A DNA stretch of 64,000 nt from Giardia intestinalis (lineage: Eukaryota): NCBI GenBank assembly GCA_000002435.2, contig CM018790.1; one strand, 5' to 3'. Under the pieces are notes generated by a model that did no database searches, was not told the origin of the DNA, and worked only from the letters and a program-made list of their open reading frames with translations. Numbering within the stretch: position 1 is the stretch's first letter; each line of letters opens with the position of its first letter. The position numbers were made by a program, and so were the translations under genes. This document shows positions 33,674 through 40,953 of the stretch, one piece after another.

Positions 33674-35815
33674 TTATACCGTCATCTCTATCCAAGCAGG
33701 GTTTATCTCCGAGACTGTGCGCATATATGCAAACGAAGTTATCACTATTTCATTATAGAGAACAAAGTTAGGGTTCTGTTTGAGGCATGAAGCAGGGTGG
33801 ATTCTACACTCTCCTGATGACCCCTCGTACGTTCTGTGATCATTACTTAGCTTTGCAACGTTAGAGATATATCCCTTTAATATACAAAAGATCACCTTAT
33901 CCTCGTCGTCCATCTCTGTATATAGACCACAAGGAGGACTCTCAGTCTCGGCTCCCGCCCCCTTTCGGGAAGCCTTACAGTATGAGTTATAGATGTCAAT
34001 GAGCTGCCGATATACATTCTTTGCATATTCTAAGCTTTTATATGAAAGGTAGTACTTGGTGCACCATGCACGCTTGTTCTCAGACTCTTCACAGTATGCC
34101 TTCCAGATATTCAGTAAAGTGATGTGGTCACCCTTCAGAGAATAAAATTGGGTTCTGGCCAGTGCGCTCTGGTCCCGTGTCTCTATGTCCACAGATGATA
34201 CAAAGACCCCGTCACACGACAAGAGAGCTACAACTCCTACCACATCCTTTACTATCTTCTTCCCGAACTTGTGTGCAGTCAAAATCGATATTGCCAGCTC
34301 TGGATCGGTAGGGAACCGGACAACCTCCCTCCCCAAAGGCGATAGGATGAGCTGAGGCTCCATCTGCGACTGATTGTCAACACCATCTTCTGTCTTCTTT
34401 ATCTGGATGCACCCCATGCGAGAAAGCTTAACTATGGCTGCCTTTTTCGCTTGGCGCGGAGGGTCAGTAATAAATTCATATGTCACAGGATTTGTTATGC
34501 CAAACGCAATAATGGTTAAGAACACAGGCATGAGATCTGTCAGCATAATCTCGGGCACATCTTGAGGCTCTAAATTTGCATATGTTTCATGGGTGTAAAT
34601 GTGGTAGCATTCTCCCTCCATTAAACGGCCCGCCCTACCCGACCGCTGAAGTATCGACGCCTGTGAGCAGGGAAGGGTTATTAGCTCCGATGTGCCCGTT
34701 GTATGATGAAACTGCTTTTTTCGCACAAACCCGCAATCCACGACATAGCGGATATTAGGCACGGTAATACTGGTTTCTGCTATATTTGTGGCGACAATTA
34801 CTCGCCGCACATTCTCGGCTGCTGATGAGAAAACCCTCATCTGCTCTGTGGTTGGGAGATTGGCATAGAAAGGCAAAACTTCTATTAGTGATGCCTCACC
34901 AGGAAGTTGAACAGTGAACCCACCTGCAGGCTTTATGGCGTCTCTGTTGGAAAATAGAGGTCCTAAAGACAACCGGTCATCATCTTCAAGGCTCTCATTA
35001 TCGTCAATACAATTTGGCCTGTTATCATCAGCACCTTCAGGCTCATACAATACACCAAACTTAGCACAGTGATTCCTGATTGCAGCAACAACATTTCTGA
35101 TCTCTAGCTCACCTGGCATGAAAACTAAGATGTCTCCGCTTTTGCAGTCCTTACAGATCTGAAGCACAGCTGAGACACACGCTTCCTGATAGCTCTTAAC
35201 AGCTTCTAGAGTGAAGTAGTGCTTAATAGGATACTGTCTTCCTTTGATGGATAGGATGGCATTTGCTGCGTGTGCTCCAAAGTAACGAACAAAGCTGGCC
35301 GCAGCGATAGTGGCAGACATGACCACCACTCGCAACTTCGGGTTTTTATCGAGCGCTGTCTTAAGAAATCCAAACAGAAGGTCGGTGCTCACGCTTCGTT
35401 CATGAGCTTCATCTACTATGACAATACTGTCAGAGTGAAAGAGTGGATCAAGTAGCGCTTCTCTAATGACTACACCATCTGTTGCATACCGTATTCTGGT
35501 TGACTTGGAAACTTTTGCGTCAAATCGAACGCTGTATCCAACCTCCTGACCCAGAGACGCGCCTCTCTCTTGTGCTACACGCAGTGCAAGTGATATAGCC
35601 GCAACCCGACGGGGCTGTGTTACTGTTATTCTTTTGATTGATGCATTAGCGTCAATAAGGTATTGGGGAAGCTGAGTGCTCTTTCCACTGCCCGTTGAAC
35701 CCACAACAACCACAACGCGCTGTGGAGAGTGTAGGATAGAATCAATTAACTGTTTCTTAATGGGATATATGGGAAGGGCGCGCTGTTCGCTCTGTATTGT
35801 GGATTGAGAAGGCAT
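33674..35815 (-). CDS. DEAH-box ATP-dependent RNA helicase (DHX family, Prp43/DHX15- or DHX35-like)
   Basis: GSTGSGKSTQLPQYL (motif I), TQPRRVAA (Ia), DEAHERS (II), SAT (III), FMPG, TNIAETSITV (V), QRSGRAGR (VI). C-terminal winged-helix/OB region. Confidence 0.9.
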   Translation of the reverse strand: MPSQSTIQSEQRALPIYPIKKQLIDSILHSPQRVVVVVGSTGSGKSTQLPQYLIDANASIKRITVTQPRRVAAISLALRVAQERGASLGQEVGYSVRFDAKVSKSTRIRYATDGVVIREALLDPLFHSDSIVIVDEAHERSVSTDLLFGFLKTALDKNPKLRVVVMSATIAAASFVRYFGAHAANAILSIKGRQYPIKHYFTLEAVKSYQEACVSAVLQICKDCKSGDILVFMPGELEIRNVVAAIRNHCAKFGVLYEPEGADDNRPNCIDDNESLEDDDRLSLGPLFSNRDAIKPAGGFTVQLPGEASLIEVLPFYANLPTTEQMRVFSSAAENVRRVIVATNIAETSITVPNIRYVVDCGFVRKKQFHHTTGTSELITLPCSQASILQRSGRAGRLMEGECYHIYTHETYANLEPQDVPEIMLTDLMPVFLTIIAFGITNPVTYEFITDPPRQAKKAAIVKLSRMGCIQIKKTEDGVDNQSQMEPQLILSPLGREVVRFPTDPELAISILTAHKFGKKIVKDVVGVVALLSCDGVFVSSVDIETRDQSALARTQFYSLKGDHITLLNIWKAYCEESENKRAWCTKYYLSYKSLEYAKNVYRQLIDIYNSYCKASRKGAGAETESPPCGLYTEMDDEDKVIFCILKGYISNVAKLSNDHRTYEGSSGECRIHPASCLKQNPNFVLYNEIVITSFAYMRTVSEINPAWIEMTV

Positions 35816-35859
35816 CTTTTATTTTTAAATAAACTTTACTCTCCAAGGGATTTACTCTT

Positions 35860-36900
35860 CTTCATCAAGGTCGGCTTGCTAGCTCCTGTCCGAGTAAACC
35901 CGTCCAGGATCCGAAGCTCGGATGCCGCCCACTCTGGAGAAGAGCCTTGTGCCTCCTCGCCCGGGGAGCCGTTGGGTGCCCCACTATGCGCTCTGGGGCG
36001 TCTCTCCTCTCTGACTGGCTTGGGTCAACCATCGTCTGACATCTAGTGAGCACCCGCTGTCTCGGGCCTTGCGTCAGTCGTGGCGATCCAGTCTCGAGAG
36101 CAGTTAACTCTGGCCATGTACTCTGGAGTAGCTTTGTGGCCCTGGTGCTCTACGACGAGGATCGCACGCCACGACTTCGGGTGTCTACCCCGTTCCTCGG
36201 GTGCCTCTTTGTCTCCCCATGACGTGGATCATCGACCCTATTGTCGGAGGTGCGCTCCCCATACGCCTCCATCTTGGAGTCATAGTACGCGTTCGTGGAT
36301 GCCGATGGAGTACTCCTATGCGTTGTGTCGGGGGAGAAGTATGGCCCTCTGCTCATGGATCGCAGGGCGCTCTTGCAGGTGGTCAGTCACTCAGCACGAG
36401 ATCATGTCAGCGCTCACCCTGTGCAGTGCGTCTGGCTCGGTGACGTGTGGGCTGGTCCATCTGCACAGCACACTTGGGTGATGCTTCGGTCTGTCGAGGC
36501 GTCGTCCAAAGCATCAGAAGCGGTCAGGACCGGTTCATCGAGGTCGTCTCTCTACAACCGGCACCCGTCTACTCGAGGGTGTCAGGCACTGCCAGCTGCT
36601 GCGGCAGACGCCTGGCGGGTGGCCCAGGTCACCGCTCTCCGGTGTGGGCAGGATCAGTCCGCCTCTGCCAACCAGACACCCCAGGGGCCCCATCTCTTGT
36701 CGAGGGACTCACATAGGCCACGTGTGGGTCCATCCTGGCCAGTGGGCAGTGATTGGTGCCATCACTGGCTCCAGGCCCTCCGTTGCCCCCTCTATCGCCT
36801 CGGGGAAGGAGGCATAAATCTTCCCCGTCAGAAGCAGACGGCATCCGACTTCGGACTTCGGATTCTGGGTCTCAGCTGGTGAACAAGCAAGGGGCTTGCC
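35860..36900. other. GC-rich (estimated >60% GC) segment of about 1.0 kb with no ORF longer than ~200 codons in any of six frames
   Basis: Only short ORFs rich in R/S/P/W/C in mixed frames (35804-36046, 36080-36481, 36295-36882). The segment sits in the 1.4-kb gap between the DEAH helicase start (35815) and the HCMP start (37251). The 3' 300 bp (36900-37250) are AT-rich and promoter-like. Confidence 0.4.
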
Positions 36901-37250
36901 TGGTATAATAACCCGCATGGGGATTTGCTCGGATTAACTTCCGATATTCCTTAAAATGAAGACGGTACTCGGCAAAACCTCAAGTAGTCTATCTTACATG
37001 ATATCACGAACTTGATAAGAAGACATGAGGGCGGCATAATTAGCCGGTAGATCGACACTAGAAAAAAGAATACCTACTATCCTTACTTCAGAGCAAAACG
37101 ATACCAAGTTAATTGGCTTAAAGTGCAAGACACAAACATGAACGGCGACTCATGAAAAACCACACATTGGGTCAATAGTTGGTGGATTTTTTCATCAAGA
37201 CAAGTAAACAGTGAAGAAAATTGAAAGCTTATTTATTGAGAAATCTCACA

Positions 37251-39761
37251 ATGACTCTTGTCGTCTCTCTTCTTCTTTTGTACGGTATTTTCTCAGAATG
37301 CGCCCAGAACAGTGACTGCGGGGGTGCGACCGGCGTCTGCAACGTCACGATCGGCGGCAAGAAGTACTGCTCCAAGTGCGACGGAGCACGGGTCCCCGTC
37401 AACGGAGACTGCAGGCTGCTGAGCCTCTCGCGGAGCATATGCATAGTTCCTACAGATAGCACCCCCACTCCAGGCTCCTGCTCGGGCTGCATCCGTGACT
37501 TCCTCTTCTACAGGGGCGGGTGCTACCGCACGGCATCCCTGATCAACGCCATATGCAAGGAGAAGCACATCGTCGAGGAGGGGATGTACTGCGGGGCGTG
37601 CGCCATCGAGGGCGACGTCCCGATCGACGGGGTGTGCGTAGCAGCAAGCGCAGATAGCTCTGGAAACACGTGTGACAAGGGCGTGTGCACGACATGTGGC
37701 AACGGATACTTCTTCCACTACGGGTCGTGCTACAAGTTCGGAGGGTCCCCGGGTGCCAACATTTGCTCTGACAGTACTAGCACTACTGGCTCTGTCTGTG
37801 GCTCTTGCGGGTCGAAGTTTGTCAAGAACCCTAGTGCGGGCCCATCTGCCACCTCCTGCTTCGCGTGCTACGGCCTGGACGGGACCCTCTTCTGCGAGCG
37901 CTGCCGGATGAACGTGCTCACGAGCACAGATGTGAAGCCCACCCTCTGTACGAAATGTAAGTCGGGGCACATCCCCCTCGATGGACGATGCATCTCCGCC
38001 TTCTCTGCTGCTTCTGCACTCGCCGGCTGCTCCACCTACAAAGGTTCAGACAATGCCATGGGACTTTGCGAAACGTGCTCCTCCGGCTACATGCTCTTCT
38101 ACGGGAGCTGCTACTCTGTCAACGGCCCCCTCGCCCAGGCCATCTGCAAGACCGAGAACCAGATCTACCTCGGGGGAAGAGTCTTCTGCAAGCAGTGCGC
38201 CCAGACAGACCACTACCCCATCAACGGCTTATGCATTGCTGATAAGGGATCACATACGTGCGAGGCGGGCATCTGCACAGCATGCGACACCAGCACAACC
38301 CCCGTCGACAACTCCAAGGTTTTCCCGTTCTATAACGGCTGCTATGATGCAAACTCTGCAATCGGAAAGCTAATATGCCAGGAGGCGTCTAATGGAGCGT
38401 GCTCAACTTGCAATACAAACGAGACATCGAATATAATAGCTAATCCTAATTCTGCAGATGGCCAACCAAAATGTCTTGGATGTTGGGACGAGGCAGCTAC
38501 TGGGGTGGCCAACTGCGGAGGGTGTGCGACCGGCACAGACGGCGATTCCAAGATCGTCTGTAGCAAGTGCACCGACTCGACGGAACCCAAAGACAACACG
38601 TGCCCTCAGGCCCTCCCGCCCACAACGCCTGAAGGATGCGCCGTCCAGGGCTGCCAGGCGTGCTCGAAGGACTCTGCCACGACGTGCGACACTTGCTTCT
38701 CTCCACTTGTCATGAAGGAGGACAAGACGAAGTGCTTCGGGAGCTGCCTTGCGCTGGGTCTTGGCTACTACAACGACGCCGGTGTGTGTAGGCCATGCAC
38801 CAGCAAGTGCCTCACGTGCACAGACGGGACCACATGCACCCAATGCGCCGAAGGGTACTATCTCGAGGTGTCGGGCGCCGGCTCAACGACGGGGACCTGC
38901 AAGGCGTGTGCCGCTGGGTGCTCGACGTGTACTGGTGCTGGTGATAGCCTCTGCTCCACGTGCGTCACAGGGTACTACGCCGCATTCAACGTTAGGCAGG
39001 GAGGACCCGGAAAGTGCGTTCAATGCAGCGTCTCTGAGGACGGGTACACTGGCGTTGAGCATTGTGCAGCCTGCTACAGCACTACAGGGCAGACAACTGG
39101 TGCCAAGAATGTGGTCTGTGAGAGCTGCGAGGACGGGTACCTTAAAGAACATGTCGATAACAAGGTCGTCTGCAACCCACCAGCCCCGAAGTGCACGGTT
39201 CCGTTGTGCGCCATATGTGTCGAAAACGACGCGATGAGGTGCGAGCACTGCACGACCGGCGCGTACCTCTGCCCGCGGACGGCGGCGTGCACGAAGGACT
39301 GCGCCAGCTGCGGCGGCTCGATGTACCCCGACGAGGACCTCGGGGAGTGCCAGCCGTGCGACATCACAAACTGCCTGGTCTGCGCGACGGGGCTCAAGTG
39401 CGAGAGCTGCGCGGAGAACGCCGTCCCCATCTCCCCGGACGTCTACCATACGGCGTGCATGGGCTGCAGCGACACCGGGGGCATGGACGGCTGGGTGGGC
39501 CTCGCGGGGTGCACGACCTGCGAGCTGACCGACAAGGGCGGCGGGAGCGTCAACTGCCTCGACCCTGGCTACTACCGGCGGGGCGGGCTCGGCGGGGGAG
39601 CAATCGCCGCCATCGTCATCGTCGTCCTCCTCGTCCTGGCCGTCGCCGGCTTCCTCGTCTGGTGGTTCGTCTTCAGGAGGGGCGGCCGGCCCAAGCGCGG
39701 GGCGAAGTACACATCGCTCATGCGGGGCGAGTCCTACGACTACCGCCAGTCCCTAATATGA
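37251..39761 (+). CDS. high-cysteine membrane protein (HCMP), VSP-like type I membrane protein
   Basis: The ORF-track start is TTG; the first ATG at 37251 gives a signal peptide MTLVVSLLLLYGIFSECA. Dozens of CxxC motifs and GGCY modules. Single C-terminal TM (AIAAIVIVVLLVLAVAGFLVWWFVF). The cytoplasmic tail RRGGRPKRGAKYTSLMRGESYDYRQSLI lacks the VSP-invariant CRGKA, so this is an HCMP, not a VSP. Confidence 0.85.
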   Translation: MTLVVSLLLLYGIFSECAQNSDCGGATGVCNVTIGGKKYCSKCDGARVPVNGDCRLLSLSRSICIVPTDSTPTPGSCSGCIRDFLFYRGGCYRTASLINAICKEKHIVEEGMYCGACAIEGDVPIDGVCVAASADSSGNTCDKGVCTTCGNGYFFHYGSCYKFGGSPGANICSDSTSTTGSVCGSCGSKFVKNPSAGPSATSCFACYGLDGTLFCERCRMNVLTSTDVKPTLCTKCKSGHIPLDGRCISAFSAASALAGCSTYKGSDNAMGLCETCSSGYMLFYGSCYSVNGPLAQAICKTENQIYLGGRVFCKQCAQTDHYPINGLCIADKGSHTCEAGICTACDTSTTPVDNSKVFPFYNGCYDANSAIGKLICQEASNGACSTCNTNETSNIIANPNSADGQPKCLGCWDEAATGVANCGGCATGTDGDSKIVCSKCTDSTEPKDNTCPQALPPTTPEGCAVQGCQACSKDSATTCDTCFSPLVMKEDKTKCFGSCLALGLGYYNDAGVCRPCTSKCLTCTDGTTCTQCAEGYYLEVSGAGSTTGTCKACAAGCSTCTGAGDSLCSTCVTGYYAAFNVRQGGPGKCVQCSVSEDGYTGVEHCAACYSTTGQTTGAKNVVCESCEDGYLKEHVDNKVVCNPPAPKCTVPLCAICVENDAMRCEHCTTGAYLCPRTAACTKDCASCGGSMYPDEDLGECQPCDITNCLVCATGLKCESCAENAVPISPDVYHTACMGCSDTGGMDGWVGLAGCTTCELTDKGGGSVNCLDPGYYRRGGLGGGAIAAIVIVVLLVLAVAGFLVWWFVFRRGGRPKRGAKYTSLMRGESYDYRQSLI

Positions 39762-40571
39762 TTCCCCAGTAAACGGAGCTATCGCCTGCCGGTGCCTGTC
39801 TCTGAACGCGCATATCCCGGAGATGTCGACGGAGCCGAGGAGCCTCCGCACCCGCAAGCGCTCCCCCGGAAAGGGCTCGGTGTCCGCCGTCTTCGAGATC
39901 GACACGCTGCACTCTGCGGCATCCGACGCGACGCAGGAGAGGCCGTTGTGGAGCACCACCCGGGAGATCTCGCTGACGTGGACGGACAGCATGGGCCGCA
40001 GAATGCACACTCGATGCTTGGCCCTGCTGGCAAAGTCCATGACCTCGCAGTTGTAGTACCCCCGGAGCCCGAAGAAGGAGGCCCCGTGGACCCCGGTGAT
40101 CGCCAGGGTCTCCAGGTCGTCCAGCAGGTGGTGGCCGAGGGCCAGGGCGTCGTAGCCGCCGGCGGACACAAAGCTCGCCAGTGTTCCGCGGCGGCAGCGA
40201 GAGCAGACGCTGCACGCAGACGCCTTCCTGGCCTCCTGCCCCAATGCATCCAGGCGGGCGATCTTGGCTGAGACGTCCATCCCAACCACCTGCTGCTCGA
40301 ACGTCATGGCTCCCTCTGCGGCGTCGTCGATCGACAGCGCGCACGGGCAGAGGCTCCGTATCGTGTCCAGGATGAAGCCGGGTATCTTTGGGTCGAAGGT
40401 CACAGGGGTCACTTCCAGCGCCCCCAGGTCTCCTAGGCCGATGGGGTCAAACAGCCGCTTGATCATAGTAGCTGGAAGGAAGCCTACGCCTCTTCTGAAA
40501 GGACAAAAGTCGTCCGGTCTAGCCATCGGGACCAGTGGGTCAAACCGTTCAGCGTTAGAAGGAAAAGCCAT
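39753..40571 (-). CDS. TtcA/Ncs6-family PP-loop (tRNA thiolation) protein homolog with non-canonical PP-loop
   Basis: KASACSVCSRCRRGTLASFVSAGGYDALALGHHLLDDLETL…RVCILRPMLSVHVSEISRV aligns with E. coli TtcA KTTCSLCSRLRRGIL…ALGHHRDDILQTL…IVIRPLAYCREKDIQRF. Where SGGKDS is expected the sequence is FDPKIPGFILDTIRSL or IGLGDLGA. Very GC-rich, on the opposite strand and overlapping the HCMP 3' end by 9 nt. Confidence 0.55.
   Translation of the reverse strand: MAFPSNAERFDPLVPMARPDDFCPFRRGVGFLPATMIKRLFDPIGLGDLGALEVTPVTFDPKIPGFILDTIRSLCPCALSIDDAAEGAMTFEQQVVGMDVSAKIARLDALGQEARKASACSVCSRCRRGTLASFVSAGGYDALALGHHLLDDLETLAITGVHGASFFGLRGYYNCEVMDFASRAKHRVCILRPMLSVHVSEISRVVLHNGLSCVASDAAECSVSISKTADTEPFPGERLRVRRLLGSVDISGICAFRDRHRQAIAPFTGESY
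39768..39774 (+). promoter_or_regulatory. polyadenylation signal AGTAAAC, 7 nt after the HCMP stop
   Basis: TGATTCCCCAGTAAACGG. Confidence 0.6.
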
Positions 40572-40953
40572 TCTCGGGCGTCGCTAGTCTGCTGCTGTGG
40601 ATCTCAGTGCGTTCCTACGTAGAACAAACCAATTACATGGCCAACGTGTAGCCGCGTCACGCTCTGAAACGCATGTGTCTGTAGACAGTTAGTATACGGT
40701 CCAGTCATCTCCGTGTGCAAAGACTGTCATTAGAAGCAATGGGCTGACAGCCTGGGGCAACATGGTTGAAGCACGCTTCCAAATAGTAGTGGGTGCAGGC
40801 CCGAACAGCAACCTTATGAACAAGTTACTTAAATTACAAGATTAAATTATGAGAATAATGTTCCACCCAGTATGCTCCGAGACGTTAGAGAGCATGCAGA
40901 TACAGGGTACAGTCTACAGAGCAAGCTGCAGTGCAAATTCATAAGTATTGGTT

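What the first reader, a model, noticed from the sequence alone, without database searches (positions are those of the whole stretch)
39753..40571. TtcA-type PP-loop thiolase homolog with the ATP-binding SGGxDS loop replaced, in a >60% GC block opposite the HCMP gene
The central part aligns well with bacterial TtcA (CSxCSRxRRG…ALGHHxDD…ETL…RPL), including two of the putative Fe-S Cys ligands and a candidate third (…LSCVASDAAEC…). The GHHxDD form is the bacterial TtcA signature; eukaryotic Ncs6/Ctu1 have GHNADD. At the position where SGGKDS must sit, about 75 residues before the CxxC, the sequence is FDPKIPGF or IGLGDLGA, so ATP and adenylation chemistry should be lost. No SGGKDS is encoded anywhere in the flanking minus-strand sequence, which I checked for frameshifted copies. 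Possible readings: a laterally acquired bacterial-type TtcA that has become a non-catalytic paralogue (scaffold or Fe-S binding), a decaying pseudogene, or a sequencing frameshift. The gene and the 3' half of the adjacent HCMP gene form a compositionally distinct block (about 38400-40600). Highly expressed Giardia genes are also GC3-rich, so composition alone does not prove transfer.
Basis: partly seen in the sequence, partly recalled or inferred. Interest (0 to 1): 0.6.

Follow-up and report, generated by a model that had tools for sequence, protein, structure and literature searches.

The report
Truncated duplicate of Giardia TtcA-like gene
This ORF is a 5'-truncated copy of a full-length Giardia TtcA-like tRNA-thiolase gene found elsewhere in the genome, carried along when the neighbouring surface-protein (HCMP) gene was duplicated; the ATP-binding loop was left behind at the duplication breakpoint, not replaced, so this is most likely an ordinary gene fragment.

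Summary
The 272-aa ORF at 39753-40571(-) is real. It is identical to the annotated Giardia intestinalis WB "PP-loop family protein" XP_001707151.1. Its similarity to TtcA-type PP-loop enzymes is significant, and no SGGxDS motif occurs in any frame of the window.

The loop was not replaced. WB, DH, P15 and GS all carry a 552-aa parent gene with an intact SGGKDS at residues 297-302. Homology between the window and that parent starts abruptly at window 40448 (ORF codon 42, parent codon 322), 25 residues after the motif. It runs through the gene's 3' end into the convergent HCMP gene.

The duplicated module is therefore the last 696 bp of the thiolase gene plus the whole HCMP. The 41-codon leader is unrelated to the parent and diverges as fast as the non-coding flank. 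Its ATG is not conserved in P15.

Copies are homogenised within each strain: 5 nt differences within a strain against about 77 between assemblages. GC3 rises to 0.86 only in the duplicated tract. That pattern fits GC-biased gene conversion and accounts for the "GC block"; recent lateral transfer is not needed.

Most likely this is a non-catalytic passenger fragment. A regulatory role is not excluded but is unsupported. Interest is low.

The parts
39753..40571 (-). Annotated 272-aa ORF ('PP-loop family protein', identical to XP_001707151.1 of G. intestinalis WB)
   Evidence: ORF list. Exact identity to P0068. 98% identical to the second WB truncated copy P0001.
39753..40448 (-). Duplicated 3' part of the TtcA-like gene. 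It corresponds to codons 322-552 plus the stop of the 552-aa parent, and carries CSVCSRCRRG, GHHLLDDLET and SDAAEC but not the PP-loop.
   Evidence: blastn against the WB parent locus L001: 99.2% over 727 bp, starting exactly at 40448. Sliding identity 97-100%. Only 3 amino-acid differences from the C-terminus of P0067.
40449..40571 (-). 41-codon 'leader' unrelated to the parent gene. It is shared only with the other truncated copies and evolves at the non-coding rate.
   Evidence: Alignments. WB-P15 divergence is 29/123 here, against 16/62 in the upstream non-coding stretch and 77/693 in the duplicated part. The WB ATG at 40571-40569 reads GCA in P15. AF2 pLDDT is below 50 for residues 1-12 and 16-46.
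40572..40680 (-). Upstream non-coding stretch shared with the other truncated locus (DH L006). It marks the outer edge of the secondary duplication.
   Evidence: L006 matches window 40680-37261 at 92%. P15 L003 matches 40633-39749.
40185..40214 (-). CSVCSRCRRG motif (residues 120-129; CxxC Fe-S ligands of TtcA-type enzymes)
   Evidence: Read from the sequence. C120, C123, R127, R128 and G129 are nearly invariant.
40107..40139 (-). LGHHLLDDLET motif (residues 145-155)
   Evidence: Read from the sequence. G146, H147, H148 and E154 are nearly invariant; D151 is invariant.
39909..39911 (-). Cys221 in SDAAEC, the candidate third Fe-S ligand
   Evidence: Nearly invariant column C221. 'EC' is invariant across the metamonad family.
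37221..39761 (+). Convergent HCMP (VSP-family) gene, overlapping the ORF's 3' end by 9 bp. It was co-duplicated with the thiolase fragment.
   Evidence: Pfam VSP PF03302, E=5.6e-42. The parent loci in WB, DH, P15 and GS all have a VSP-family gene overlapping by 9 bp. DH parent locus L007 matches window 40448-37383; DH truncated locus L006 matches 40680-37261.
39250..40448 (.). Near-identical (96-100%) tract shared with the WB parent locus. This is the highest-GC part of the block and the inferred gene-conversion tract.
   Evidence: Sliding identity between L002 and the window. GC 0.64-0.71.

Best explanation
The ORF is a 5'-truncated partial duplicate of the full-length Giardia TtcA-like PP-loop gene (552 aa, XP_001708332.1 in WB), which lies at another locus.

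Shown:
- The parent gene ends tail-to-tail with an HCMP/VSP-family gene, overlapping it by 9 bp.
- The window shares with the parent locus the whole HCMP and the last 696 bp of the thiolase gene.
- The breakpoint (window 40448) lies 25 residues after the SGGKDS loop. Strand beta1, the PP-loop and helix alpha1 were therefore never part of the copy.
- The window copy carries the same junction and about 230 bp of junction-flanking sequence as the truncated copy seen in a different gene context in DH and P15. The two truncated loci therefore descend from one event followed by a second duplication.

Inferred:
- A segmental duplication of the HCMP carried the thiolase fragment along as a passenger.
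- An ORF of 272 codons exists only because the flanking sequence happens to stay open and supplies an ATG.
- The fragment stays nearly identical to the parent within each strain through recurrent, GC-biased gene conversion. This keeps the frame open and raises GC3, giving the appearance of a conserved GC-rich gene.
- Without the nucleotide-binding core it cannot adenylate tRNA, and it is most likely a non-functional passenger fragment (pseudogene).
For: - The cluster look-up shows three WB proteins in one 90% cluster: 552 aa, 272 aa and 272 aa. DH has a 551 + 271 pair and P15 a 553 + 258 pair.
- The parent has 'VAVAFSGGKDSLCLL' at 297-302, and the family alignment places the window ORF downstream of it.
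- DNA homology starts sharply at 40448. It is 99.2% identical to the WB parent, and only 30-37 of 100 alignment columns match upstream.
- The parent's N-terminal 310 aa has no tblastn match anywhere in the window.
- Parent-locus synteny (Ank, EamA, hydrolase, kinase, PP-loop gene, then a convergent VSP/HCMP) is conserved in WB, DH, P15 and GS.
- The HCMP is co-duplicated.
- Concerted evolution: 5 nt differences between truncated and full copies within WB and within P15, against 74-79 between assemblages A and E. No site separates the truncated from the full copies in A.
- In P15, the two changes specific to the truncated copy hit the family's most conserved residues (RRG to RRR, GHH to CHH).
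- The leader diverges at the same rate as the adjacent non-coding DNA, and its start codon is not conserved.
- AF2 of the parent places beta1 at 291-295 and alpha1 at 300-317 with pLDDT about 93-95. These are exactly the elements missing from the copy. In the ORF model the leader has pLDDT below 50.
- GC3 in the parent is 0.49 (5' part) against 0.86 (duplicated part) in WB and 0.445 against 0.78 in P15. In GS, where no truncated copy was seen, it is 0.42 against 0.54.
- AT-to-GC asymmetry is 136:40 in the duplicated part against 144:118 in the 5' part (Fisher p=1.7e-6).
- Recombination and segmental gene conversion among Giardia VSP genes are reported in the literature (PMC7641422).
Against: - The ORF is intact in every isolate examined (two copies in WB, plus DH, P15 and an ENA contig).
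- Lineage-specific changes on the truncated copies are 6 non-synonymous to 6 synonymous. This is somewhat fewer non-synonymous changes than neutrality predicts (binomial p=0.065), so weak purifying selection cannot be excluded.
- The Fe-S cysteines and the putative dimer and tRNA-binding parts are retained.
- No expression data could be consulted.
- Absence of truncated copies in assemblage B rests only on not finding them among called proteins. The B contig at the window-equivalent site ends 254 bp before the neighbouring gene.
Confidence: 0.85

Rival explanations
1. The truncated copies are expressed and act as non-catalytic partners or regulators of the full-length thiolase. They would be analogous to Ctu2/Ncs2, which lacks a PP-loop and pairs with Ctu1/Ncs6, or they could be Fe-S or tRNA-binding subunits, or dominant-negative modulators.
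For: - The open frame is kept in A1, A2 and E, with two copies in WB.
- The CxxC + C ligands are retained in WB.
- The N:S ratio of 6:6 on the truncated lineages is slightly below the neutral expectation.
- TtcA-type enzymes act as dimers (general knowledge; Bouvier et al. 2014, cited).
Against: - There is no Pfam CTU2 hit even at E<=10.
- The central beta1 strand and alpha1 of the Rossmann-like sheet are missing, so a stable fold is doubtful.
- The leader evolves neutrally and its ATG is not conserved.
- The P15 copy has mutated the RRG and GHH core residues.
- Gene conversion alone explains the intact frame.
- No A/T-rich initiator-like element lies within about 50 nt upstream of the ATG, unlike the parent's 'caaaatttaa'. 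This last point rests on general knowledge of Giardia promoters and is only suggestive.
Confidence: 0.08
2. A sequencing or assembly frameshift or mis-join hides a normal full-length gene at this locus.
For: None beyond the missing motif.
Against: - The identical junction appears in independent assemblies: WB reference proteins, DH L006, P15 L003 and ENA contig L010.
- The parent's N-terminal 310 aa has no match in any frame of the window.
- A divergently oriented 1100-aa gene begins 376 bp upstream, leaving no room for the 960-bp 5' part.
Confidence: 0.01
3. A recently laterally acquired bacterial TtcA gene that then lost its P-loop in situ. The GC-rich block would mark the transferred DNA.
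For: - The best profile match is bacterial TtcA.
- The GC-rich block is real.
Against: - The sequence is 99% identical to the 3' part of a resident Giardia gene, whose orthologues sit in conserved synteny in all assemblages.
- Homologues with the same N-terminal extension occur in Spironucleus, Barthelona and other Giardia lineages.
- Half of the GC-rich block is a Giardia-specific VSP-family gene.
- The GC3 rise is restricted to the paralogous tract.
Confidence: 0.01

Closest known systems
Giardia intestinalis WB 552-aa 'PP-loop family protein' XP_001708332.1 (P0067) and its orthologues in DH, P15 and GS
   Same: Residues 42-272 of the window ORF equal residues 322-552 of this protein, apart from 3 substitutions. 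The CxxC, GHH and SDAAEC motifs are the same, as is the convergent HCMP neighbour with a 9-bp overlap.
   Different: The parent has a roughly 290-aa N-terminal extension plus beta1, SGGKDS and alpha1. The window ORF has instead an unrelated 41-aa leader.
Bacterial TtcA (tRNA 2-thiocytidine-32 synthetase, NCBIfam NF007972)
   Same: It is the best-scoring curated family. It shares the CSxCSRxRRG and LGHHxxD..ET motifs and a third Cys for a [4Fe-4S] cluster.
   Different: The score is far below the equivalog cut-off: 39.6 bits for the ORF, 52.7 for the Giardia parent and 113.9 for Barthelona, against 272. The ORF has no PP-loop. The parent family carries a long N-terminal extension that bacterial TtcA lacks.
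Ctu2/Ncs2 (PP-loop-less partner of the eukaryotic Ctu1/Ncs6 U34 thiolase)
   Same: It is a PP-loop-fold paralogue without the SGGxDS motif that coexists with an active paralogue. This is a conceptual analogy from general knowledge.
   Different: There is no sequence match to the CTU2 family. Ctu2 is an ancient full-length paralogue. This ORF is a recent physical truncation, 99% identical to its parent.
TilS / TtuA / NcsA (solved PP-loop tRNA-modifying enzymes)
   Same: The fold of the retained part matches them: Foldseek E about 1e-6, TM about 0.5 to 5mkp, 3vrh, 2e21 and 6scy. Sequence hits appear.
   Different: All of them possess the N-terminal beta1-PP-loop-alpha1 unit that is absent here.

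Membership tests
PP-loop ATP pyrophosphatase superfamily (Pfam PF01171 ATP_bind_3) | SGGxDS PP-loop motif after strand beta1 | tested here: not met
   No [ST]GGxD[ST] occurs in any frame of the window. The alignment shows the ORF starts downstream of the parent's SGGKDS.
PP-loop ATP pyrophosphatase superfamily (Pfam PF01171 ATP_bind_3) | Profile score at or above the Pfam gathering threshold | tested here: not met
   26.4 bits against a cut-off of 27, covering only profile positions 61-162 of 182. The parent scores 37.2 bits.
PP-loop ATP pyrophosphatase superfamily (Pfam PF01171 ATP_bind_3) | Complete Rossmann-like alpha/beta core | tested here: not met
   Parent beta1 (291-295) and alpha1 (300-317) are modelled with confidence and lie before the breakpoint. 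In the ORF model residues 1-46 have pLDDT below 50. The remainder matches the TtuA, TilS and NcsA folds.
TtcA (tRNA s2C32 synthetase) | Central CxxC plus a third Cys as [4Fe-4S] ligands | tested here: met
   C120, C123 and C221 lie in nearly invariant columns. Cluster binding itself was not tested.
TtcA (tRNA s2C32 synthetase) | NCBIfam equivalog score (NF007972, cut-off 272 bits) | tested here: not met
   39.6 bits, matching residues 117-170 only.
TtcA (tRNA s2C32 synthetase) | ATP-dependent thiolation of C32 in tRNA | not testable with these tools
   This needs biochemistry. The absent ATP site argues against activity.
Ctu2/Ncs2 family (Pfam CTU2) | Sequence match to the CTU2 profile | tested here: not met
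   Only PF01171 is reported at E<=10.
Partial (5'-truncated) segmental gene duplicate | A full-length parent elsewhere; an abrupt homology breakpoint inside the coding sequence; neighbouring DNA co-duplicated | tested here: met
   Parent loci L001, L002, L005, L007 and L004 were found. The breakpoint is at 40448. The HCMP is co-duplicated down to about 37261-37383.
Partial (5'-truncated) segmental gene duplicate | Lack of constraint on sequence private to the copy | tested here: inconclusive
   The leader diverges like non-coding DNA, the ATG is not conserved, and the P15 motifs are hit. However, N:S of 6:6 on the truncated lineages does not differ significantly from either neutrality or constraint.

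The most novel reading that the evidence does not exclude
The truncated TtcA-like fragments, kept open-reading in assemblages A and E and present twice in WB, are translated. They would then act as PP-loop-less partners or dominant-negative regulators of the full-length thiolase, a young Ctu2-like subunit caught at birth. Gene conversion would maintain interface compatibility with the parent.
Probability: 0.07. Interest if true: 0.6.

Novelty: already known. Interest (0 to 1): 0.15.

Why it matters
Mainly as a caution. A conserved-looking, GC3-rich ORF that seems to have a replaced catalytic loop turned out to be a duplication breakpoint artefact, kept intact by gene conversion.

For Giardia annotation, two of the three WB 'PP-loop family protein' entries should be flagged as 5'-truncated copies of the third.

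A modest biological point also emerges. HCMP/VSP-family duplication drags neighbouring housekeeping gene fragments along. The converted tract shows a clean GC-biased-conversion signature: GC3 of 0.49 against 0.86 within one gene, and no comparable rise in assemblage B. This could serve as a natural marker for studying recombination in an organism whose sexuality is debated.

Tried and rejected
- A Pfam scan at E<=10 for a Ctu2-like identity found nothing but PF01171.
- The first word-indexed homologue search returned only two Giardia clusters. The exhaustive representative search was what revealed the 552-aa form.
- A profile search with the family alignment added only more Giardia-like full-length forms, one TtcA and one TilS. 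No usable taxon sampling was obtained for an LGT phylogeny, so none was built.
- The other WB truncated copy (P0001) is not on record for a DNA look-up, so no WB-to-WB comparison of the truncated loci could be made.
- I tried to find an 'empty site' in assemblage B through the neighbouring 1100-aa gene. The B contigs end 254 bp upstream of that gene, and those 254 bp have no similarity to the window. The result is uninformative.
- A selection test on copy-private substitutions had too few changes (6N:6S) to decide.
- Literature searches (Giardia + PP-loop; TtcA + Giardia) found no paper dealing with these genes. One preprint only repeats that TtcA homologues exist in Giardia.
- The N-terminal extension of the parent has no Pfam hit. 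It is modelled only partly, as a beta-alpha-beta region at residues 30-110 with pLDDT 54-88. It could not be fold-searched separately.
Full report
**What is at the coordinates.**
The minus strand of 39753-40571 carries an ATG-to-stop ORF of 272 aa. It overlaps by 9 bp the 3' end of a convergent 836/846-aa VSP-family high-cysteine membrane protein gene at 37221-39761. That gene matches Pfam VSP at 5.6e-42.

The ORF's translation is identical to G. intestinalis WB XP_001707151.1, 'PP-loop family protein' (P0068). It is 98% identical to a second WB protein of the same length, XP_001709625.1. The window is therefore Giardia WB-type DNA, and the ORF is an already annotated gene model.

**Is the TtcA similarity real?**
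Yes, but it is partial.
- Pfam PF01171 matches residues 102-212 to profile positions 61-162 of 182. E is 6.8e-6 and the score is 26.4 bits, just below the gathering score of 27.
- The best NCBIfam hit is TtcA (NF007972, 3.7e-10), followed by TilS_N (3.8e-8) and NcsA. All are far below the curated cut-offs.
- PDB sequence hits are TtuA and TilS.
- An AF2 model of the ORF matches TtuA, TilS and NcsA by Foldseek, with E about 1e-6 and TM about 0.5.
- C120, C123 and C221 fall in nearly invariant columns, as do RRG, GHH, D151 and E154.
- The motif is GHHLLDD, not GHHxDD.
- No [ST]GGxD[ST] is encoded in any of the six frames of the whole window.

**The decisive result.**
An exhaustive HMMER search found a 552-aa assemblage-B protein that is 72% identical over ORF residues 35-270. 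Directly upstream of that matching region it reads '...RRVAVAFSGGKDSLCLLLHLSLLSLMARRGMLDPIGL...'.

A cluster look-up then showed full-length and truncated forms together in several isolates:
- WB has a 552-aa protein (XP_001708332.1, P0067) in the same 90% cluster as the two 272-aa proteins.
- DH has a 551 + 271 pair.
- P15 has a 553 + 258 pair.

In the family alignment, the window ORF aligns to the parent only from 'DPIGLGDLG' onwards. That is ORF residue 42 and parent residue 322. The parent's SGGKDS sits at 297-302, 25 residues upstream.

**DNA-level anatomy.**
- The WB parent locus (L001/L002) matches the window from exactly 40448 downwards. Identity is 99.2% over the 727 bp that reach the end of L001.
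- A sliding comparison with L002 gives 96-100% from 40448 to about 39250, then about 55% for 39250-38800, then 88-99% again for 38750-38476, where the contig ends. Upstream of 40448, only 30-37 of 100 alignment columns match.
- The longer DH parent locus L007 matches 40448-37383.
- The DH truncated locus L006 matches 40680-37261.
- The parent's N-terminal 310 aa has no tblastn match anywhere in the window.
- A divergent 1100-aa ORF starts only 376 bp upstream of the ATG.

In all four assemblage genomes the parent lies in the same synteny: Ank protein, EamA, an unnamed gene, hydrolase, kinase, the PP-loop gene, then a convergent VSP-family gene overlapping by 9 bp.

The duplicated module is therefore the whole HCMP plus the last 696 bp of the thiolase gene. 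The thiolase fragment is a passenger of an HCMP duplication.

The truncated copies of DH and P15 lie in a different gene context from the window (DHHC..., 1451-aa gene). Yet they share with the window the same junction, the 41-codon leader and 60-110 bp further upstream. This points to one truncation event followed by a second duplication of the already truncated module. Which of the two truncated loci came first is not resolved. An ENA contig of another A-type isolate, 97.7% identical to the window, also carries the window-locus copy.

**Frameshift or assembly artefact?**
No. The junction is reproduced in independent assemblies, and homology to the parent stops abruptly. It does not continue in another frame.

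**Evolutionary behaviour.**
Over the shared 693 bp, truncated and full copies differ by only 5 nt within WB and 5 nt within P15. Any A copy differs from any E copy by 74-79 nt. No site separates the truncated from the full copies within assemblage A. Because the junction is shared between A and E, this pattern means concerted evolution by gene conversion, not independent duplications.

Changes private to the truncated copies total 6 non-synonymous and 6 synonymous. This is not significantly different from neutrality (p=0.065), nor from constraint.

In P15, the two changes private to the truncated copy fall on the most conserved residues of the family: RRG to RRR and GHH to CHH.

The leader (40449-40571) differs between WB and P15 at 29 of 123 positions. 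The adjacent non-coding DNA differs at 16 of 62, and the converted coding part at 77 of 693. The WB start codon at 40571 reads GCA in P15. So the only sequence private to the truncated ORF evolves like non-coding DNA.

**Structure.**
AF2 of the parent places beta1 at 291-295 and alpha1 at 300-317, with pLDDT about 93-95. The copy lacks these central core elements. In the ORF model, residues 1-12 and 16-46 have pLDDT below 50, while the retained core (about 120-210) reaches 82-91. Adenylation chemistry is impossible, and independent folding is doubtful because the central strand of the sheet is missing. That second point is an inference.

**The GC block.**
The high-GC stretch of 0.64-0.71 coincides with the tract that is nearly identical between the paralogous loci. 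Within the parent gene itself, GC3 by part is:

| Isolate | 5' unduplicated part | 3' duplicated part |
|---|---|---|
| WB | 0.49 | 0.86 |
| P15 | 0.445 | 0.78 |
| GS (no truncated copy detected) | 0.42 | 0.54 |

Sites that are A/T in GS and G/C in WB outnumber the reverse by 136:40 in the duplicated part, against 144:118 in the 5' part (Fisher p=1.7e-6).

This is the expected signature of GC-biased gene conversion among the copies. It explains the compositional block without invoking lateral transfer or high expression. It remains an inference. Segmental conversion among Giardia VSP genes is documented (PMC7641422).

**What the parent is.**
The parent belongs to a metamonad family with a 200-330-aa N-terminal extension that has no Pfam match, followed by a TtcA-like PP-loop domain. 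Members include:
- Giardia lineages P0003, P0082 and P0083;
- Spironucleus salmonicida P0006, annotated 'tRNA 2-thiocytidine biosynthesis protein';
- Barthelona P0010.

The TtcA profile scores reach 8.4e-33 for Barthelona. Whether this family ultimately came from bacteria was not tested. If it did, the transfer is old and unrelated to the GC block.

**Verdict.**
The mechanism proposed for the missing loop is wrong.

The ORF is a 5'-truncated passenger fragment of a resident gene, annotated in the reference genome, and most probably non-functional. Gene conversion keeps it looking healthy. The residual novel possibility, a young Ctu2-like non-catalytic partner, has no positive support (about 7%).

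Interest is low. The by-products worth keeping are the annotation correction and the GC-biased conversion signature.

Noticed in passing
window 39250-40448; parent loci L001, L005, L007, L004: Within the full-length parent gene, GC3 jumps from 0.49 in the unduplicated 5' part to 0.86 in the duplicated 3' part in WB, and from 0.445 to 0.78 in P15. In assemblage B (GS) the rise is much smaller (0.42 to 0.54). AT-to-GC asymmetry is 136:40 against 144:118. This looks like GC-biased gene conversion confined to the paralogous tract.
   Followed up: partly
window 38800-39250 (inside the HCMP gene): The HCMP copies are mosaic. A stretch of about 450 bp is only about 55% identical to the WB parent-locus HCMP, while both sides are 88-100% identical. 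This suggests recombination or segment replacement among HCMP/VSP family members.
   Followed up: no
window 36032-36472 (GC-rich, ORF-poor stretch 35750-37000); L003 11084-11609 and 12269-12835: This stretch is about 74% identical to sequence that, in P15, lies between the truncated PP-loop ORF and a reverse-transcriptase fragment (Pfam RVT_1, 4e-12). It may be a degenerate non-LTR retroelement remnant bordering the duplicated module.
   Followed up: partly
P0067 residues 1-290 (parent protein, not in the window); also P0006, P0010, P0083: The metamonad TtcA-like proteins carry a 200-330-aa N-terminal extension with no Pfam match. AF2 models residues 30-110 as a beta-alpha-beta repeat (pLDDT 54-88), possibly a degenerate Rossmann-like domain. 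A preprint describes animal IscS-TtcA fusions (10.64898/2026.09.27.754811), which raises the question of what is fused here.
   Followed up: partly
window 39753-39761: The HCMP and PP-loop ORFs converge and overlap by 9 bp, stop codons included. The same 9-bp overlap is conserved at the parent locus in WB, DH, P15 and GS.
   Followed up: yes
window 39700-40600, other frames: Several ORFs of 100-200 aa in other frames on both strands (for example 39718-40344(-), 39779-40285(-), 39792-40271(+)) are most likely by-products of the high GC content, not genes.
   Followed up: no
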